This document shows, in pieces, positions 50,476 to 58,624 of a stretch of 64,000 nucleotides of DNA. Origin of the DNA: an uncultured Acidobacteriota bacterium. Its GTDB lineage: Bacteria; Acidobacteriota; Thermoanaerobaculia; Gp7-AA8. Made by a program: the position numbers and the translations under genes. The notes beneath the pieces were generated by a model. That model worked only from the letters and a program-made list of their open reading frames with translations, did no database searches and had not been told where the DNA came from. Positions within the stretch are counted from its first letter, which is position 1. Each line of letters opens with the position of its first letter. Location: NCBI GenBank assembly GCA_963822445.1, contig CAWGHO010000003.1, forward strand, positions 416,001 through 480,000, in the 5' to 3' direction.

Positions 50476-52841
<2,366 letters not shown>

Positions 52842-52842
<1 letters not shown>

Positions 52843-53168
52843 TGCTCGCAAAGACTCCTGATCCGCCCTATTACGCCGTGATCTTCACGTCGCTGCGCAC
52901 GCCGGTCGCGGAGGGTTACGACGACATGTCCGCGAAGATGGTGGAGATGGCCGCGCAGCAGCCCGGCTTCCTCGGCGTGGAAAGCGCTCGCGGCGAAGAT
53001 GGCCTGGGCATCACCGTTTCGTACTGGGAGAGCGAAGAGGCCATTGCCAACTGGCGCGCCAACGCCGAGCATCGCGTCGCGCAGTCGCAGGGTCGCGAGC
53101 AGTGGTACACCGAGTTCGTGACACGCGTGGCCAAGGTCGAGCGCGCGCGGACGTTCGCCGCGGGCTGA
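52842..53168 (+). CDS. Antibiotic biosynthesis monooxygenase (ABM) family protein
   Basis: PPYYAVIFTS, QPGFLGVESAR, GITVSYW, EHRVAQ..GREQWY. Confidence 0.88.
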
Positions 53169-53181
53169 GGGGAAACGACCA

Positions 53182-53300
53182 GGGGCCTCCGGCGGGCCGG
53201 CACGGCCGGCAGCGCTGATGTTGGCGTAAACGCGACCCGCGCTGGCTACCGCGAGCTCGGCAGAAGGCACAATCAACGCTGCCGGCCGTGCCGGCCCGCC
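53182..53300. repeat. REP-like 33-bp inverted repeat whose right arm is interrupted by the IS (remainder at 54842-54850)
   Basis: 53182-53214 is the exact reverse complement of 53277-53300 joined to 54842-54850. Confidence 0.9.
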
Positions 53301-53560
53301 TATAGCTTGTCCGACCGTCTCTCCGCTTCTCCCTCAGCCTTCACAGAAATACCCGTTGCGTGGCGATCAGGAGAACCGAGTTCAGACGGCGCGATACTAA
53401 GAAGAAGGGTTCGTCCCGCTACGAATTCCGCCCGTGTTCGGATCGACGAATCCCTCCGGACTTTCGAGCGGGACGAAGTGCTTTGGCCCGAAACGCATTC
53501 TCAGATGCTGTCGGAGCACGACTCGACTATAGGCCTTGCGCGCGGCCAAAGCCAACCCGA
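53301..53560 (+). ncRNA. Putative IS110 bridge RNA in the non-coding left end
   Basis: Two stem-enclosed loops (53410-53477, 53480-53552) containing matches to the target and donor junctions. Confidence 0.8.
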
Positions 53561-53572
53561 AGGGAGGGTGTG

Positions 53573-54817
53573 ATGAGCGAGTTCGAGTTTGGGGCGTTGG
53601 TGGGACTGGATTGGGGTGACACATCGCACGAGGTGGCTCTTTGGGACGAGCAACAGCAGACGTGCACGAACGAGCGCATCGAGCACACGCCTGCGGCTCT
53701 GCGCGCATGGATCGAAGGCTCGGATGAAACGCCTCACGATACCGGGCTGCACTGCGTGGGTTGATCGGATACAACGTGACGAACGGATAGCCGCTGAGCG
53801 CGTCGAAGACCGCGCCGCGGGACTGCTCGATGGCCACGGCGATCGGTGCCCCGCCGAAGCGCGCCTGCAGCGCTTTCGAAAGACGATCCGACCGACGCGG
53901 CGTCCTTGCTCGACCTGCTCCGTAAGCACCGCAACGAGCTGCGCCCGTTCATCGCCGACGACGCTTCTACGCGTCTGCTGCGGCTTCTGACCGAGGATCG
54001 GCGGGAGCTCGTCGATCAGAGGACGCAACACGTCCAACGCATGACCGATCGGCTCAAGACGTACTACCCGCAGGCGCTCCGGTGGGCCGGCGCGTTGATT
54101 ACGGCGCAGGCCTGTGACTTCCTCGAACGCTGGCCGACGCTCGAGGCCATCCAAAGGGCTCGGCCGTCCGCGATACGGAGGTTCTATGCGGGTCATCATC
54201 ACGCGGCCGCGTGGATCGACCAGAAGCTCGCCGAGATCCGTTCAGAGGTCGCGTTCCACGACGATCAGGTCACCACTGACGCTGCCGTGCTGCTGATCGG
54301 AAGCGAGGTTGCGCAGATCCGGGCCCTCAACGCGAGCATCGCCACGTACGACCAGAAGATCTCGGCGGCGTTCGCCGCCCACCAGGACGCGTCGATCTTC
54401 GCGAGCTTCCCTGGCGCCGGCCAACAGCTCGCGCCGCGGCTCGCCGCCGCCTTCGGGACCGATCGCAAGCGCTTCGGCAGCGCCGTCAACGTCGCCACCC
54501 GAAGCGGCATCGCCCCGGTTCTCCGCCGGAGCGGCAAAACGGCGGTCGTGCACATGCGCTGGGCCTGTCCGAAGTTCCTGCGTCAGACGTTCCATGAGTA
54601 CGCCCGCGTGTCGATCGGTCAGTCCGAATGGGCTCGAGCCTTCTACAAGCAGCAACGCGCGCGCGGACACAGCCACCACGAGGCTATCCGCACGCTCGCT
54701 TACCGCTGGATCCGCGTCCTTTACGCCTGCTGGAACAATCGCACCGTCTACGACGAAGCTCTCTATCTGCGGCAGCTCGCCACGCGAGGCTCAACCCTCG
54801 CCACAGCTGCTGCCTGA
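53573..54817 (+). pseudogene. IS110 transposase/recombinase disrupted by an internal inversion (53717-53873)
   Basis: GLDWG, KDDPTDA, SFPGAG and SGIAPV..SGK on +; AIEQSRG..INP on -; re-inversion gives an uninterrupted 414-aa ORF. Confidence 0.9.
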
Positions 54818-54863
54818 CTTGACAGGAAGGCTCAGATGTCCGGAGGCCCCACGGTCGTTCTCT

Positions 54864-55631
54864 CTAGCCCCGCACCCGCTGACCGCCCGTGTACACGTTG
54901 AAGCGCCCGTCGCGCACGAATCCGAGGAGCGTGAGGTTGAATTCGCTCGCGAGCTCGATCGCCAGCGAGGACGGTGCACCGACCGCGGCCAGGACCGCGA
55001 TGCGCGCGACCAGCGCCTTCTGCACGATCTCGAAACTGGTCCGGCCGCTGACGACCATCACCCGATCGGCGATGCTCGCGCCTTCGCGGAAAAACGAGCC
55101 GATCACTTTGTCGACGGCGTTGTGCCGGCCGATGTCCTCACGAATGCGGACGAGCTCACCGGTTGTCGTGAAGATCCCGGCGGCGTGAATCGCACCGGTG
55201 GCGTCGAATGCCTTCTGTGCGGCGCGGAGTGTTTCGGGCAGCGACGAGATGATGGCGGGGGAGACCCGCGCGTTCGATTCGATTGGCGTGAGGTGCACGC
55301 GCAACGCGTCGATCGAGACCTTGCCGCACACACCGCACGACGACGTCGAATAGAAATGGCGTTGCAGGCGCTGCAGATCGAGTTTTTCACGGGCCTCTAC
55401 GCGCACGATGTTCGATGAGCCCCAGTGACGGATCGACACGATTTCCGTGGCTGCTCTGAGAATCGATTCGGTGAACAGGAACCCCGCGGCCAGGTCGAAG
55501 TCCTCGCCGGGCGTTCGCAGGGTTACCGAGACGGGCTTCTCGCCGACACGGATCTCCAGCGGTTCCTCGACGGCGACGATGTCCTCGGCTTCGGTGGGGA
55601 CGCCTGCTTCGTATCGGGTGATGCGCGTCAT
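54864..55631 (-). CDS. fdhD: Formate dehydrogenase accessory sulfurtransferase FdhD
   Basis: EEPLEI, SSCGVCGK, EDIGRHNAVDK, SGRTSFE, APSSLA. Confidence 0.95.
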   Translation of the reverse strand: MTRITRYEAGVPTEAEDIVAVEEPLEIRVGEKPVSVTLRTPGEDFDLAAGFLFTESILRAATEIVSIRHWGSSNIVRVEAREKLDLQRLQRHFYSTSSCGVCGKVSIDALRVHLTPIESNARVSPAIISSLPETLRAAQKAFDATGAIHAAGIFTTTGELVRIREDIGRHNAVDKVIGSFFREGASIADRVMVVSGRTSFEIVQKALVARIAVLAAVGAPSSLAIELASEFNLTLLGFVRDGRFNVYTGGQRVRG

Positions 55632-55672
55632 CGTTCGACATGCTAGTGGAGCACTCCATTAAACTCCCGCCC

Positions 55673-58624
55673 ATGTGGCCGATCCTCCGCCAACTCCTGG
55701 GTGACAAGAACGCCGCAGTCAGCGAACGCACCCGCAACCTGCAGCCGAAAAACGAGAACACCAGCGTCGCGCGATCGGTCTGCCCGTACTGCGCGGTCGG
55801 CTGCGGACAGCTGGTCTTTCACCGCGGCGATCGCGTGGTCAGCATCGAAGGCGATCCCGCATCGCCCATCTCCCGCGGCCACCTCTGTCCCAAAGGCGCC
55901 GCGAGCTACGAGCTGGTCACGCACGCCGGTCGAGCCACGCGAGTGAAATACCGCGCACCGCGATCGCGCAAGTGGACGGAGCTCGATCTCGAGACGGCGG
56001 TGGACATGGTCGCCGACCGCATCTGGGCGACGCGCGAGCGCACCTTCGACGAAAAGCACAACCACACCACCGGCATCGCCCACCTCGGCGGCGCGACGCT
56101 CGACATCGAAGAGAACTACCTCATCAAGAAGCTCTTCACCGCCGGACTGGGGATGGTCTGCCTGAGCAATCAGGCGCGGATATGACACAGCTCCACGGTG
56201 CCCGGTCTGGGTACCACTTACGGCCGCGGCGGCGCCACGACCGCGCAGCAGGACCTCGCCAATTCCGACGCCATTCTGATCATGGGCTCGTCGATGGCCG
56301 AGAACCATCCAGTCGGATTCCAGTGGGTGATCGAAGCGCGCGAAAAGAATCACGCGAAGGTCATCCATGTCGACCCGCGATTCACTCGCACGTCGGCCAT
56401 GGCCGATTACTGGCTCCCACTGCGCGCCGGCAGCGACCTGATCTTCCTCGGCGCGATGATCAACTACGTCATCGCGAACGACCGCTGGTTCCGCGAGTAC
56501 GTCGTGCGCTACACGAATGCGGCGGTGATCGTCCGCGATGATTTCGTCGATACCGAGGATCTCGGTGGCGTTTTTTCGGGTCCGGAGACGTGGTTGTATC
56601 CGGACGCGCCGTCGGGATCGCGCGACACCGGCCATCGCGGCGAAGCACAAGGCGCGCCGCAAACGCCGCCCGATCCACCGCGCGACGAAACGCTGCAGCA
56701 TCCGCGATGCGTGTTCCAGGTGCTGAAGCGCCACTTCGCGCGGTACACGCCGGAGATGGTCGAGCGCTCGTGCGGGATTCCGGCGGCATCGTTTCTCGAG
56801 GTAGCGGACGTCTTCACGAGCGCTTCCGGACCGGAGAAGACCGCGTCGATCTGTTACGCCGTCGGCTGGACGCAGCATTCGAGCGGCGTGCAGACCATCC
56901 GCGCCGCGGCCATCCTTCAATTACTGCTCGGCAACGTCGGCCGTCCCGGCGGAGGAATCATGGCCCTCCGCGGACACGCGTCGATTCAGGGCTCGACGGA
57001 CATCCCCACGCTCTACGACATCCTGCCCGGCTACCTGCCCATGCCCACGTCGAGCGAGCCGTCCCTTGGCGACTACCTGAAGAAACACAAAGCGGCGAAG
57101 GGCTGGTGGTTCAACGTCGACAACTACCTCGTCTCGCTGCTGAAGGCTTACTACGGCGATGAGGCGAAACGCGAAAACGACTTCGGATACGCGTGGCTGC
57201 CGCGGCTCACCGGCGATCACTCCTACTTCGGCTACTGGCTGGACATGGCCGACGGCAAGCTCGAAGGGCTGATGGTCATGGGCCAAAACCCGGCGGTCGG
57301 CTCGCCGAACGCGAAGCTCGAGCGCGACGCGATGAAGAAGCTGAAGTGGATGGTTGTGCGGGAGATGGTCGAGACCGAAACGGCGATGTTCTGGCAGGAC
57401 GGGCCGGATGACGTCGAGACCGAGGTGTTCTTCTTCCCCGCGGCATCCCATGTCGAGAAGGACGGAACGTTCACCAACACCCAGCGCCTGCTGCAGTGGC
57501 GCGAGAAAGCGGTCGAGCCGCCCGGCGACGCCCGGAGTGAGCTGCAATTCATGGTCGCCCTCGGCCGCAAGCTCAAGGCCAAGGCGACGGACGCGCCGCG
57601 CGATGCGGCGCTCCGCGCGTTGACGTGGGATTACGCGGATGAAGATGCGGAGGAAGTGCTGCGGGAGATTCATGGCGGCCCGCGCATCAAGCACTTCGGC
57701 GAATTGAAAAACGACGGCTCGACCTACTGCGGCTGCTGGATCTACTCCGGCGTCTTCGACGGCGAGAACAAAGCAAACAACCGCGCGCCGAAAGGCCGCC
57801 ACGCGCACGGCTGGGGCTACGCGTGGCCGCTCGATCGCCGCATCCTCTACAACCGCGCCTCCGCGCGGCCGGACGGCAGACCATGGAGCGAGCGCAAGGC
57901 CCTGGTCTGGTGGGATGAAGAAAAGCGCGAGTGGGTCGGTCACGACGTGCCCGACTTCACTCGGGGAAAAGCACCCGACTATGTTCCAACCGCGGAGAGC
58001 GGCGGCGATGAAGCGCTGGCCGGCGACGCGCCGTTCATCATGCATCCCGACGGCATGGGCTGGTTGTGGGTTCCATCGGGCCTGAAGGACGGACCGTTGC
58101 CGGCGCATTACGAGCCGCTCGAATCGAACATCCGCAATCCGCTGTACGAACAGCAATCCAATCCCGCGGCTCTCCGTTTCGAGCGACCCGATAATCCGTA
58201 CGCCTCGTCACCCGACGCGCGATTCCCGTTCGTCCTCACCACCTATCGCCTGACTGAGCATCACACCGCCGGTGGCATGTCCCGCACGCTCTCGCATCTC
58301 GCGGAGCTTCAGCCCGAGCTCTTCGCGGAGATCTCGCCGGAGCTCGCGACGCAGGTCGGCGTGTCCAACGGTGAGTTCGTGACGATCTCCACGGCCCGCG
58401 GCGCGATCAATGCGCGTGCGCTCGTGACGACGCGCATGCCCTCGCTGCAGATTGACGGACAGACCGTGCACCAGGTCGGCCTGCCGTATCACTGGGGCGA
58501 TCGCGGTCTGGTGAAAGGGGACGTCGTCAACGATCTCCTGGCGATCTCCGAAGAGCCGAACGTGAAGATCTTCGAGTCGAAGGGGCTGACCTGCAATCTG
58601 ACGCGGAGTGCGTCAGCGGAATAG
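55673..58624 (+). CDS. Selenocysteine-containing formate dehydrogenase alpha subunit (FdnG/FdoG type)
   Basis: CPYCAVGC...LCPKG; in-frame TGA at 56183-56185 in the NQARI-U-HSSTV context; same frame continues to 58624. Confidence 0.92.
56183..56225 (+). promoter_or_regulatory. Sec UGA codon with bacterial SECIS hairpin
   Basis: TGA cacagctccac ggtgccc ggtct gggtacc: stem with a GT-containing apical loop 11 nt after the UGA. Confidence 0.8.

What the first reader, a model, noticed from the sequence alone, without database searches (positions are those of the whole stretch)
53410..53552. Bridge RNA with readable target and donor guides
Seen: stem ttcgtcccgct/agcgggacgaa (53410-53420 / 53467-53477) encloses gcccg (53430-53434, matching the left target flank) and cctccgg (53453-53459, reverse complement of CCggagg, core plus right target). 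Stem gctttggcc/ggccaaagc (53480-53488 / 53544-53552) encloses ctcagatg (53500-53507, matching the right-end donor flank 54831-54838) and ctatagg (53527-53533, reverse complement of CCtatag, core plus left end). Established: this is the two-loop layout of IS110 bridge RNAs. Inference: a new programmable recombinase and guide pair with a CC core; the left target guide match is short.
Basis: partly seen in the sequence, partly recalled or inferred. Interest (0 to 1): 0.8.

Follow-up and report, generated by a model that had tools for sequence, protein, structure and literature searches.

The report
IS110 insertion sequence bridge RNA
This is the guide ("bridge") RNA of a small jumping gene of the IS110 family: its two loops spell out the site it inserts into and its own ends, so it is a real but ordinary new example of a known system.

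Summary
Window 53301-54839 is an IS110-family insertion sequence bounded by a CC core (53299-53300 and 54840-54841). Its 273-nt left end encodes a two-loop RNA (model hit 53402-53563). Loop 1 carries the left target flank (53428-53434) and the complement of core plus right flank (53453-59). Loop 2 carries the right-end sequence (53500-07) and the complement of core plus left end (53527-33). All four matches in order occurred in 0 of 20,000 shuffles.

The genome holds 10 copies, all inserted at the same REP-like site, and 40 empty copies of that site. In homologues at 35-89% protein identity the RNA scaffold covaries: 34 of 41 pairs show compensatory changes. The guide segments track each element's own flanks (0 of 20,000 permutations reach the observed score). 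Core-reading bases agree between the two loops in 26 of 27 RNAs. The cross-loop "handshake" bases described for IS621 also fit.

This is a new member of a known kind, not a new system. The left target guide is 6 of 7 at this copy, and 7 of 7 at three other copies, so it is not short. The window copy's recombinase gene is broken by a 161-bp inversion, but nine paralogues are intact, so nothing needs repairing. Expression was not testable.

The parts
53186..53199 (-). Empty copy of the 14-nt target (LT7 + CC + RT5) on the opposite strand. With the occupied site it forms a convergent pair of REP-like repeats (arm 53182-53214).
   Evidence: Read; CCTCCGG at 53186; target family counted.
53281..53295 (+). 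GC hairpin of the target repeat (gccggc-cgt-gccggc). It ends 3 nt before the core and overlaps the left target.
   Evidence: 49 of 51 target sites in the genome have a perfect 6-7 bp stem with a 3-nt loop in this position, in three compensating sequence variants.
53292..53300 (+). Left target (cggcccg, 53292-53298) and left copy of the CC core (53299-53300).
   Evidence: empty sites.
53301..53573 (+). Left end (273 nt, non-coding). Its first six bases, TATAGC, are the right donor and a -10-like box.
53402..53563 (+). Bridge RNA scaffold (covariance-model hit, 147.7 bits, E 4e-35; the only hit in the 64-kb window).
   Evidence: structure counts.
53410..53477 (+). Target-binding stem-loop. Left target guide ccgcccg 53428-53434 (ug 53435-36 at the core position). 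Inner hairpin 53437-53449. Right target guide cctcc+gg 53453-53459. Handshake bases ac 53460-61.
53480..53552 (+). Donor-binding stem-loop. Left donor guide ctcagatg 53500-53507. Inner hairpin 53510-53525. Right donor guide ctata+gg 53527-53533. Handshake base c 53534.
53574..53714 (+). Recombinase gene, codons 1-47 (includes D13).
53715..53875 (-). 161-bp segment of the recombinase gene (about codons 49-101, with catalytic E64), inverted in this copy only. The boundaries are ambiguous by 3 nt (AAG/CTT).
53876..54817 (+). Rest of the recombinase gene (D104, D105, D108, S320; Transposase_20 domain), stop at 54815-54817.
54818..54839 (+). Right end (22 nt) with -35-like TTGACA (54819-54824) and left donor ctcagatgt (54831-54839).
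54840..54846 (+). Right copy of the CC core (54840-41) and right target ggagg (54842-46).

Best explanation
Window 53301-54839 is one of ten copies of an IS110-family insertion sequence in an Acidobacteriota genome; its nearest relatives are in Thermoanaerobaculia MAGs. The left end encodes a bridge RNA. In the first stem-loop, the 5' side of the internal loop (53428-34) has the sequence of the left target's top strand, so it would pair with the bottom strand. The 3' side (53453-59) is complementary to the CC core plus the right target. The second stem-loop reads the element's own circle junction in the same way: the right end through 53500-07, and the core plus left end through 53527-33. Inferred by analogy with IS621: the element excises as a circle. 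Joining the right end to the left end creates a promoter (TTGACA, 17 bp, TATAGC) that drives the RNA and the recombinase. A recombinase tetramer holding the RNA pairs the donor junction with a REP-like target (C[C/G]GCCCG-CC-GGAGG) and exchanges strands at the CC core. The bases just 3' of each right guide (ac 53460-61, c 53534) pair with the other DNA after top-strand exchange. Shown here: anatomy, copy number, precise insertion sites, RNA covariation, guide-flank covariation, and conserved catalytic residues. Inferred: transcription, RNA-protein binding and catalysis. The window copy itself is not autonomous because its recombinase gene carries an inversion. Its RNA and ends are intact, so the nine intact paralogues could move it in trans.
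For: Ten full copies are inserted at the same sequence...gcccg|CC|TATAG...GATGT|CC|ggagg. The genome has 40 empty 14-mers C[CG]GCCCGCCGGAGG against about 0.9 expected for one such 14-mer, which fixes the element boundaries and the 2-bp core.

The recombinase has DEDD_Tnp_IS110 (1.6e-28) and Transposase_20 (1.3e-11) domains. It passes NCBIfam NF033542, 'IS110 family RNA-guided transposase' (143.2 bits, cut-off 140). D13, E64, D104, D105, D108 and S320 are invariant in 14 homologues.

The RNA region 53410-53552 has one substitution among the 10 copies (53542, an unpaired linker). The preceding 104 nt differ at 11 positions between the window copy and the majority type.

The covariance model finds the RNA upstream of the recombinase gene in 60 of the 66 homologous loci given. 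On 50 distinct sequences, 89.2% of cells pair, 34 of 41 pairs show changes on both sides, 0 of 500 shuffles reach this, and slid controls give 34-41% paired.

Guides against flanks, for 25 distinct guide pairs: own flanks score 4.84 of 7 (left) and 4.84 of 5 (right), other elements' flanks 2.80 and 1.95, and 0 of 20,000 permutations reach the observed sum. The right guide is 5 of 5 in 22 of 25. Core-reading bases of the two loops agree in 26 of 27 RNAs across cores CC, CT, AT, GT and AA.

Handshake bases: the target-loop base pairs with donor position 7 in 25 of 30 (with its own target position 7 in 7 of 30). The donor-loop base pairs with target position 7 in 20 of 30 (with its own donor in 6 of 30). 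Permutations reaching these values: 23 and 0 of 20,000.

A split promoter across the circle junction, with at least 5 of 6 matches to TTGACA at 17-18 bp from TATAGN, occurs in 22 of 30 distinct junctions. This matches the IS621 description (PMC11208160, passages read; PMC11208158).
Against: There is no evidence of transcription. No RNA run holds the sequence, no promoter-like site lies on the + strand inside the integrated left end, and no terminator-like site follows the RNA.

The 5'-side guides do not read the core. The positions after the left target guide are UG, not CC. They match the core in only 6 of 27 homologues, and those after the left donor guide in 0 of 27. For IS621, pairing to both strands of the core was 'strongly preferred' (PMC11208160).

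The left guide has one mismatch to the flank at this copy and at 6 other copies. Left-guide matches are poor in some distant homologues: 2-4 of 7 in 9 of 25 under the controlled register.

The recombinase is only remotely similar in sequence to the solved bridge recombinases (ISCro4 E 1.8e-5, IS621 E 3e-4, C-terminal domain only). No Rfam family matches. The window copy's recombinase gene is broken.
Confidence: 0.9

Rival explanations
1. The structured left end is only a cis-regulatory 5' leader of the recombinase mRNA, or a set of recombinase-binding repeats of the element's ends, with no role in choosing the target.
For: The RNA ends about 10 nt before the ribosome-binding site and no terminator-like site separates it from the gene. 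Internal repeats of terminal sequences serve as transposase-binding sites in other IS families (general knowledge). The donor loop is highly conserved.
Against: Loop 1 matches DNA outside the element and changes with it from element to element (0 of 20,000 permutations). The donor-loop handshake base tracks target position 7 (20 of 30; 0 of 20,000). Core-reading bases change together in both loops (26 of 27). A leader or a protein-binding site explains none of these.
Confidence: 0.04
2. The four matches in this copy are chance, or a by-product of the GC-rich palindromic target.
For: GCCCG alone occurs in 51% of shuffles. The target is partly palindromic, so the guides can also pair with each other in the minimum-energy fold.
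Against: All four matches in order occur in 0 of 20,000 shuffles. The same geometry holds in homologues with unrelated, AT-rich targets.
Confidence: 0.01
3. Sub-claim only: the 161-bp inversion in the window copy is an assembly error, and the copy is in fact intact and autonomous.
For: Only 1 of 10 near-identical copies shows it. The boundaries share just a 3-nt inverted repeat. No laid contig bridges the junctions in the window's orientation. The one contig with a strand switch at 53717 comes from a relative with the usual orientation.
Against: The assembly is in 3 contigs with unique flanks on both sides of this copy. The inverted block is an exact reverse complement with clean junctions. 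Short inversions at quasi-palindromes do occur.
Confidence: 0.3

Closest known systems
IS621 bridge RNA and recombinase (E. coli; Durrant et al. 2024, PMC11208160; Hiraizumi et al. 2024, PMC11208158; PDB 8wt6)
   Same: The RNA is encoded in the left end, with the target loop first and the donor loop second. The 5' sides equal the top strand and the 3' sides complement core plus 5 nt. There is a 7 + 2 + 5 target layout and a dinucleotide core at both ends. The first loop is variable and the second conserved. Donor position 7 is mismatched to its own guide. Handshake bases sit 3' of the right guides. A promoter is split across the circle junction, the left end is long and the right end short, and the target is a REP-like repeat.
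   Different: The core is CC, not CT. The recombinase is 414 aa against 328 aa for the solved chain, and only the C-terminal domain aligns by sequence (E 3e-4). The 5'-side guides mostly do not read the core (6 of 27 and 0 of 27). In most homologues a closing helix encloses both stem-loops (7 of 8 pairs compensatory; only GGG/CCC in the window's subgroup). About 100 nt of variable sequence precede the scaffold.
ISCro4 / IS622 bridge recombinase (PDB 9t56; bioRxiv 10.1101/2025.05.14.653916, search listing and abstract only)
   Same: It is the best PDB sequence match (E 1.8e-5, residues 274-406 to 199-332). The S320-G321 motif aligns with its SG.
   Different: The similarity is remote.
ISPpu10 of Pseudomonas putida (bioRxiv 10.64898/2026.03.19.712850; abstract and section 7 read)
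   Same: It inserts into one REP family. The target carries a GC-rich stem-loop on the 5' side that overlaps the left target, and REP targets often lie in convergent pairs. Here 49 of 51 sites have a 6-7 bp hairpin ending 3 nt before the core, and the window site has a convergent partner at 53186-53199.
   Different: It has a different host phylum, core (CT) and target sequence. Whether the hairpin matters for this element is untested.
seekRNA of IS1111-group elements (Siddiquee et al. 2024, PMC11187229; search listing and abstract only)
   Same: Both are non-coding RNAs of a DEDD-transposase IS that pair with the target and the element ends.
   Different: IS1111-group RNAs lie in the right end and the elements have long subterminal inverted repeats (PMC11208160). 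Here the RNA is in the left end, and the window element has no exact subterminal inverted repeat longer than 4 bp.

Membership tests
IS110-group bridge RNA | Encoded in the non-coding left end, upstream of a DEDD/Tnp recombinase gene | tested here: met
   Left end 53301-53573, gene from 53574. The model hit lies upstream of the gene in 60 of 66 homologous loci.
IS110-group bridge RNA | Two stem-loops with large internal loops, supported by covariation | tested here: met
   22 of 33 pairs compensatory on 23 sequences; 34 of 41 on 50 distinct sequences, 89.2% paired, 0 of 500 shuffles.
IS110-group bridge RNA | Loop 1: 5' side equals the left target top strand; 3' side complements core plus right target; both covary with flanks | tested here: met
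   (0 of 20,000 permutations; right guide 5 of 5 in 22 of 25).
IS110-group bridge RNA | Loop 2: 5' side equals the right-end (left donor) sequence; 3' side complements core plus left-end start | tested here: met
   The complement of the right donor guide was found exactly at the left junction in most loci.
IS110-group bridge RNA | Same dinucleotide core read by both loops and present at both element ends | tested here: met
   CC at 53299-300 and 54840-41. Right-guide core bases of the two loops agree in 26 of 27.
IS110-group bridge RNA | Core included in all four guide pairings (as stated for IS621) | tested here: not met
   The left target guide is followed by UG and the left donor guide by C+UG. 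These positions match the core in 6 of 27 and 0 of 27 homologues. This is a property of IS621, not necessarily of the family.
IS110-group bridge RNA | Handshake bases 3' of the right guides complementary to position 7 of the non-cognate DNA | tested here: met
   A53460:T54839, C53461:G54838, C53534:G53298. In homologues 25 of 30 and 20 of 30.
IS110-group bridge RNA | Promoter reconstituted across the right-end/left-end circle junction | tested here: met
   By consensus only: TTGACA (54819-24), 17 bp, TATAGC (53301-06). At least 5 of 6 matches for the -35 box in 22 of 30 junctions.
IS110-group bridge RNA | RNA is expressed and binds the recombinase; recombination depends on it | not testable with these tools
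   No RNA run holds the sequence.
IS110-family recombinase | RuvC-like DEDD domain plus Tnp domain with a catalytic serine | tested here: met
   Pfam PF01548 and PF02371. NF033542 at 143.2 bits against a cut-off of 140. D13, E64, D104/D105, D108 and S320 are invariant. The fold was not tested because the prediction tool was not accepting jobs.
IS1111-group (seekRNA) element | RNA in a long right end; subterminal inverted repeats of 7-17 bp | tested here: not met
   The right end is 22 nt and the RNA is in the left end. The longest exact subterminal inverted repeat in the window element is 4 bp.
Rfam families | Match to a curated covariance model | tested here: not met
   Only one chance-level hit (gntR-DTE, E 9.1) elsewhere in 52800-55300.

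The most novel reading that the evidence does not exclude
The element belongs to a distinct sub-class of bridge systems: recombinases of about 400-415 aa scattered through Acidobacteriota, Planctomycetota, Gemmatimonadota and marine Gammaproteobacteria. Its RNA differs from the IS621 model in rules that matter for programming. The 5'-side guides stop at position 7 and leave the core to the 3'-side guides alone. A closing helix makes a three-way junction in most members. The right donor doubles as the -10 box. A target-DNA hairpin may be a second specificity check. If so, it would offer an orthogonal scaffold with a CC core and its own design rules.
Probability: 0.35. Interest if true: 0.45.

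Novelty: new member of a known kind. Interest (0 to 1): 0.33.

Why it matters
Bridge recombinases are being developed as programmable tools for DNA insertion, excision and inversion, and each natural orthologue with readable guides is a candidate scaffold. This one comes with a natural record of activity: ten insertions and forty empty sites in one genome. It also has an intact recombinase paralogue, a non-CT core and about two dozen relatives with different guides, which together give design rules without an experiment. For the biology, it shows that the full IS621 logic (two loops, shared core, handshake bases, junction promoter) holds in a soil Acidobacteriota lineage whose recombinase is barely alignable to IS621. 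It is not a new principle.

Tried and rejected
Rfam scan of 52800-55300 at E up to 10 gave nothing relevant.

Expression: no RNA holder was listed for 53150-54950. Laying contigs of four DNA runs gave only short pieces of relatives, and none bridged the inversion junctions in the window's orientation. Neither result says anything about expression or about the reality of the inversion.

The promoter and terminator scan of 53150-54950 found one promoter-like site, on the minus strand (53555-53526), and no terminator. It was not used.

I asked whether bridge recombination could have made the inversion. Its boundaries (AAG/CTT inside a TCGAAG/CTTTCGA quasi-palindrome) bear no likeness to the target or donor and have no CC core, so I rejected this.

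Subterminal inverted repeats are present in some homologues (10 bp in L042, L044 and L045) but not in the window element (4 bp), so they do not define the clade.

The first 104 nt of the left end fold into a long hairpin in both sequence variants (-29.1 and -42.5 kcal/mol). Of the 11 differences between the variants, none changes both sides of a pair, so I claim no structure there.

The left-guide comparison with a free register (at least 5 of 7 in 23 of 27) has no matched control. The controlled figure is that.

For the 'CTCAGGG' subfamily I assumed that the right end is one base longer. Under that assumption the first core base at the right junction is G and differs from the left junction in 9 of 27 rows. 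I did not resolve whether the offset or the biology explains this.

Supplementary files of the papers were not consulted. The supplementary tables of PMC11208160 (orthologue lists) could show whether this clade was already in their set.

Full report
OBSERVATION. All strings and coordinates in the finding are correct. The two stems (53410-20/53467-77 and 53480-88/53544-52) are the outer helices of the minimum-energy fold of 53405-53557 (-63.6 kcal/mol, z = -3.2). Taken singly, the 5-nt left match is worthless (51% of dinucleotide-preserving shuffles of the left end contain it). The other three occur in 4.9%, 0.27% and 0.30% of shuffles. All four in the observed order occur in 0 of 20,000.

THE ELEMENT. 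The RNA lies in the 273-nt non-coding left end of an insertion sequence spanning 53301-54839. A CC dinucleotide sits on each side (53299-300 and 54840-41). The own genome (three contigs, 6.0 Mb, 64% G+C) holds ten full copies. All are inserted at ...g[c/g]c[c/g]gcccg|CC|...|CC|ggaggc.... It also holds 40 uninterrupted copies of C[CG]GCCCG-CC-GGAGG, where about 0.9 is expected for one such 14-mer. Empty and filled sites together fix the boundaries and the 2-bp core.

The target belongs to a REP-like repeat. In 49 of 51 sites a perfect 6-7 bp GC stem with a 3-nt loop ends 3 nt before the core, in three compensating variants. The window site also has an empty partner on the other strand at 53186-53199.

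The intact paralogue encodes a 414-aa protein with DEDD_Tnp_IS110 and Transposase_20 domains. It just passes NCBI's 'IS110 family RNA-guided transposase' model (143.2 bits against 140). D13, E64, D104, D105, D108 and S320 are invariant across 14 homologues. Sequence similarity to the solved bridge recombinases is remote (ISCro4 1.8e-5, IS621 3e-4, C-terminal domain only).

THIS COPY IS BROKEN. In the window copy alone, 53715-53875 (161 bp, about codons 49-101, including E64) is an exact reverse complement of the same stretch in the other nine copies. The boundaries are ambiguous by 3 nt. Public contigs could neither confirm nor refute the inversion. The RNA and both ends are intact.

CONSERVATION WITHIN THE GENOME. 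Among the ten copies, 53410-53552 has one substitution (53542, in an unpaired linker, in one copy). Two copies lack one C at 53556-58. In contrast, 53301-53404 differs at 11 positions between the window copy and the majority type. The block labels printed run 3 nt high after the first block; the coordinates given here are corrected.

HOMOLOGUES AND RNA STRUCTURE. A scan of one genome per species returned 72 loci encoding relatives at 35-89% identity. They come from Thermoanaerobaculia (83-89%), Vicinamibacterales, Blastocatellia, Planctomycetota, Gemmatimonadota, marine Gammaproteobacteria and others. Plain nucleotide-profile search with the left end already hit 34 of them, always over left-end positions about 100-255, which is the RNA.

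An alignment of 23 distinct RNAs gave 17 of 23 RNAalifold pairs with compensatory changes. For my 33-pair structure with the two inner hairpins, 22 pairs were compensatory and 89.3% of cells paired. No shuffle of 500 reached this, and slid controls gave 34-42%.

A covariance model built from this alignment found the RNA just upstream of the recombinase gene in 60 of the 66 loci given. Six near-identical duplicates of the 72 were left out, and the six misses lack upstream sequence or are partial. It made one hit in the 64-kb window. On the resulting 50 distinct sequences, 34 of 41 pairs are compensatory. That count includes a closing helix around both stem-loops (7 of 8 pairs), which in the window's subgroup is reduced to GGG/CCC.

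In a sample of 150 other genomes of the phylum, the model matched 2, and 0 of 4 in the same family. This is the sporadic distribution expected of a mobile element.

I located both junctions in each locus from the donor-loop strings alone, then compared the target loop with the flanks. Of 55 full-length RNAs, 32 had exactly one candidate for each junction, and these gave 25 distinct guide pairs.

- Own flanks score 4.84 of 7 (left) and 4.84 of 5 (right).
- Other elements' flanks score 2.80 and 1.95.
- None of 20,000 permutations reaches the observed sum, or either term alone.
- The right guide is perfect in 22 of 25.
- The left guide is at least 5 of 7 in 16 of 25 under the controlled registers. 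The failures are mostly distant Gammaproteobacterial elements and one locus (L052) whose left flank does not fit at all.

The bases that read the core change together in the two loops (26 of 27, across CC, CT, AT, GT and AA). The guides therefore covary with the targets, and the finding passes.

HANDSHAKE BASES. For IS621 the two bases 3' of each right guide pair with positions 6-7 of the other DNA after top-strand exchange. Pairing with their own DNA blocks the reaction (PMC11208158, passages read). Here ac (53460-61) complements donor positions 7 and 6 (T54839, G54838) and not target position 7. C53534 complements target position 7 (G53298) and not donor position 7. Across 30 distinct rows:

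- The target-loop base pairs with donor position 7 in 25, and with its own target in 7.
- The donor-loop base pairs with target position 7 in 20, and with its own donor in 6.
- Permutations reach these values 23 and 0 times in 20,000.

This also explains why T54839 is not matched by the left donor guide.

PROMOTER. TTGACA (54819-24) in the 22-nt right end lies 17 bp from TATAGC, the first six bases of the left end, once the ends are joined through one core. A -35 box with at least 5 of 6 matches at 17-18 bp is present in 22 of 30 distinct junctions. The same arrangement is described for IS621 (PMC11208160). No promoter-like site on the + strand lies inside the integrated left end. How the RNA is made before excision is therefore as open here as it was for IS621 (PMC13626964, abstract and section 4).

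DIFFERENCES FROM IS621.
- The core is CC.
- The 5'-side guides usually stop before the core: the core positions match in 6 of 27 and 0 of 27. IS621 strongly prefers pairing to both core strands.
- Most members have a closing helix.
- About 100 variable nucleotides precede the scaffold.
- The protein is about 85 residues longer.

These are variations within the known design.

VERDICT. This is a genuine bridge RNA of an IS110-family element. It is a new member of a known kind, of moderate practical interest and low conceptual interest. Expression and activity remain untested.

Noticed in passing
window 53715-53875: A 161-bp inversion inside the recombinase gene, present in this copy only (1 of 10). 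It is flanked by a 3-nt inverted repeat within a TCGAAG/CTTTCGA quasi-palindrome. It could be a real template-switch event or an assembly error.
   Followed up: partly
window 53182-53214 with 53278-53300 + 54840-54849: The insertion site is one arm of a convergent pair of REP-like repeats. The other arm holds an empty target on the minus strand (53186-53199). Genome-wide there are 41 empty and 10 filled sites, and 49 of 51 have a 6-7 bp GC hairpin ending 3 nt before the core.
   Followed up: yes
G000:C1:940350-941438 (locus L011/L021): Two 3'-proximal fragments of the element are joined head to head at C1:941051 (positions 272-973 and 586-973 of the right part). This is a rearranged remnant beside the ten full copies.
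   Followed up: no
loci L059-L062, L064, L065, L072, L086 (right junctions): In the subfamily whose right end reads CTCAGGGCGT, the first core base at the right junction is G, while the left junction and both right guides read C or A. Either the right end is one base longer than I assumed, or the two junctions keep different cores.
   Followed up: partly
locus L052, left junction: The right flank fits the right target guide 5 of 5, but the left flank fits the left guide only 2 of 7. A close relative (L050) fits 7 of 7. The left flank may have been replaced after insertion, or the insertion used a half-matching site.
   Followed up: no
loci L042, L044, L045: These Vicinamibacterales elements have a 10-bp subterminal inverted repeat (CGGCACAACT) flanking the donor sequence although their RNA lies in the left end. 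The window element has none longer than 4 bp.
   Followed up: partly
alignment A2, columns 1-8 with 252-259: A closing helix (for example GAACACGC/GCGUGUUC) encloses both stem-loops in most homologues, with compensatory changes in 7 of 8 pairs. It is nearly lost in the window's subgroup.
   Followed up: partly
window 56183-56185: An in-frame TGA joins ORFs 55640-56185 and 56198-58624. Read as selenocysteine it gives ...NQARIUHSSTVPGLG..., which I recall as the usual motif of formate dehydrogenase alpha. fdhD lies next to the element (54864-55631, minus strand; Pfam FdhD-NarQ 3e-70).
   Followed up: partly
window 53301-53404: The first 104 nt of the left end differ at 11 positions between this copy (shared in part with one other) and the eight majority copies. 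The majority variant folds much more stably (-42.5 against -29.1 kcal/mol).
   Followed up: partly
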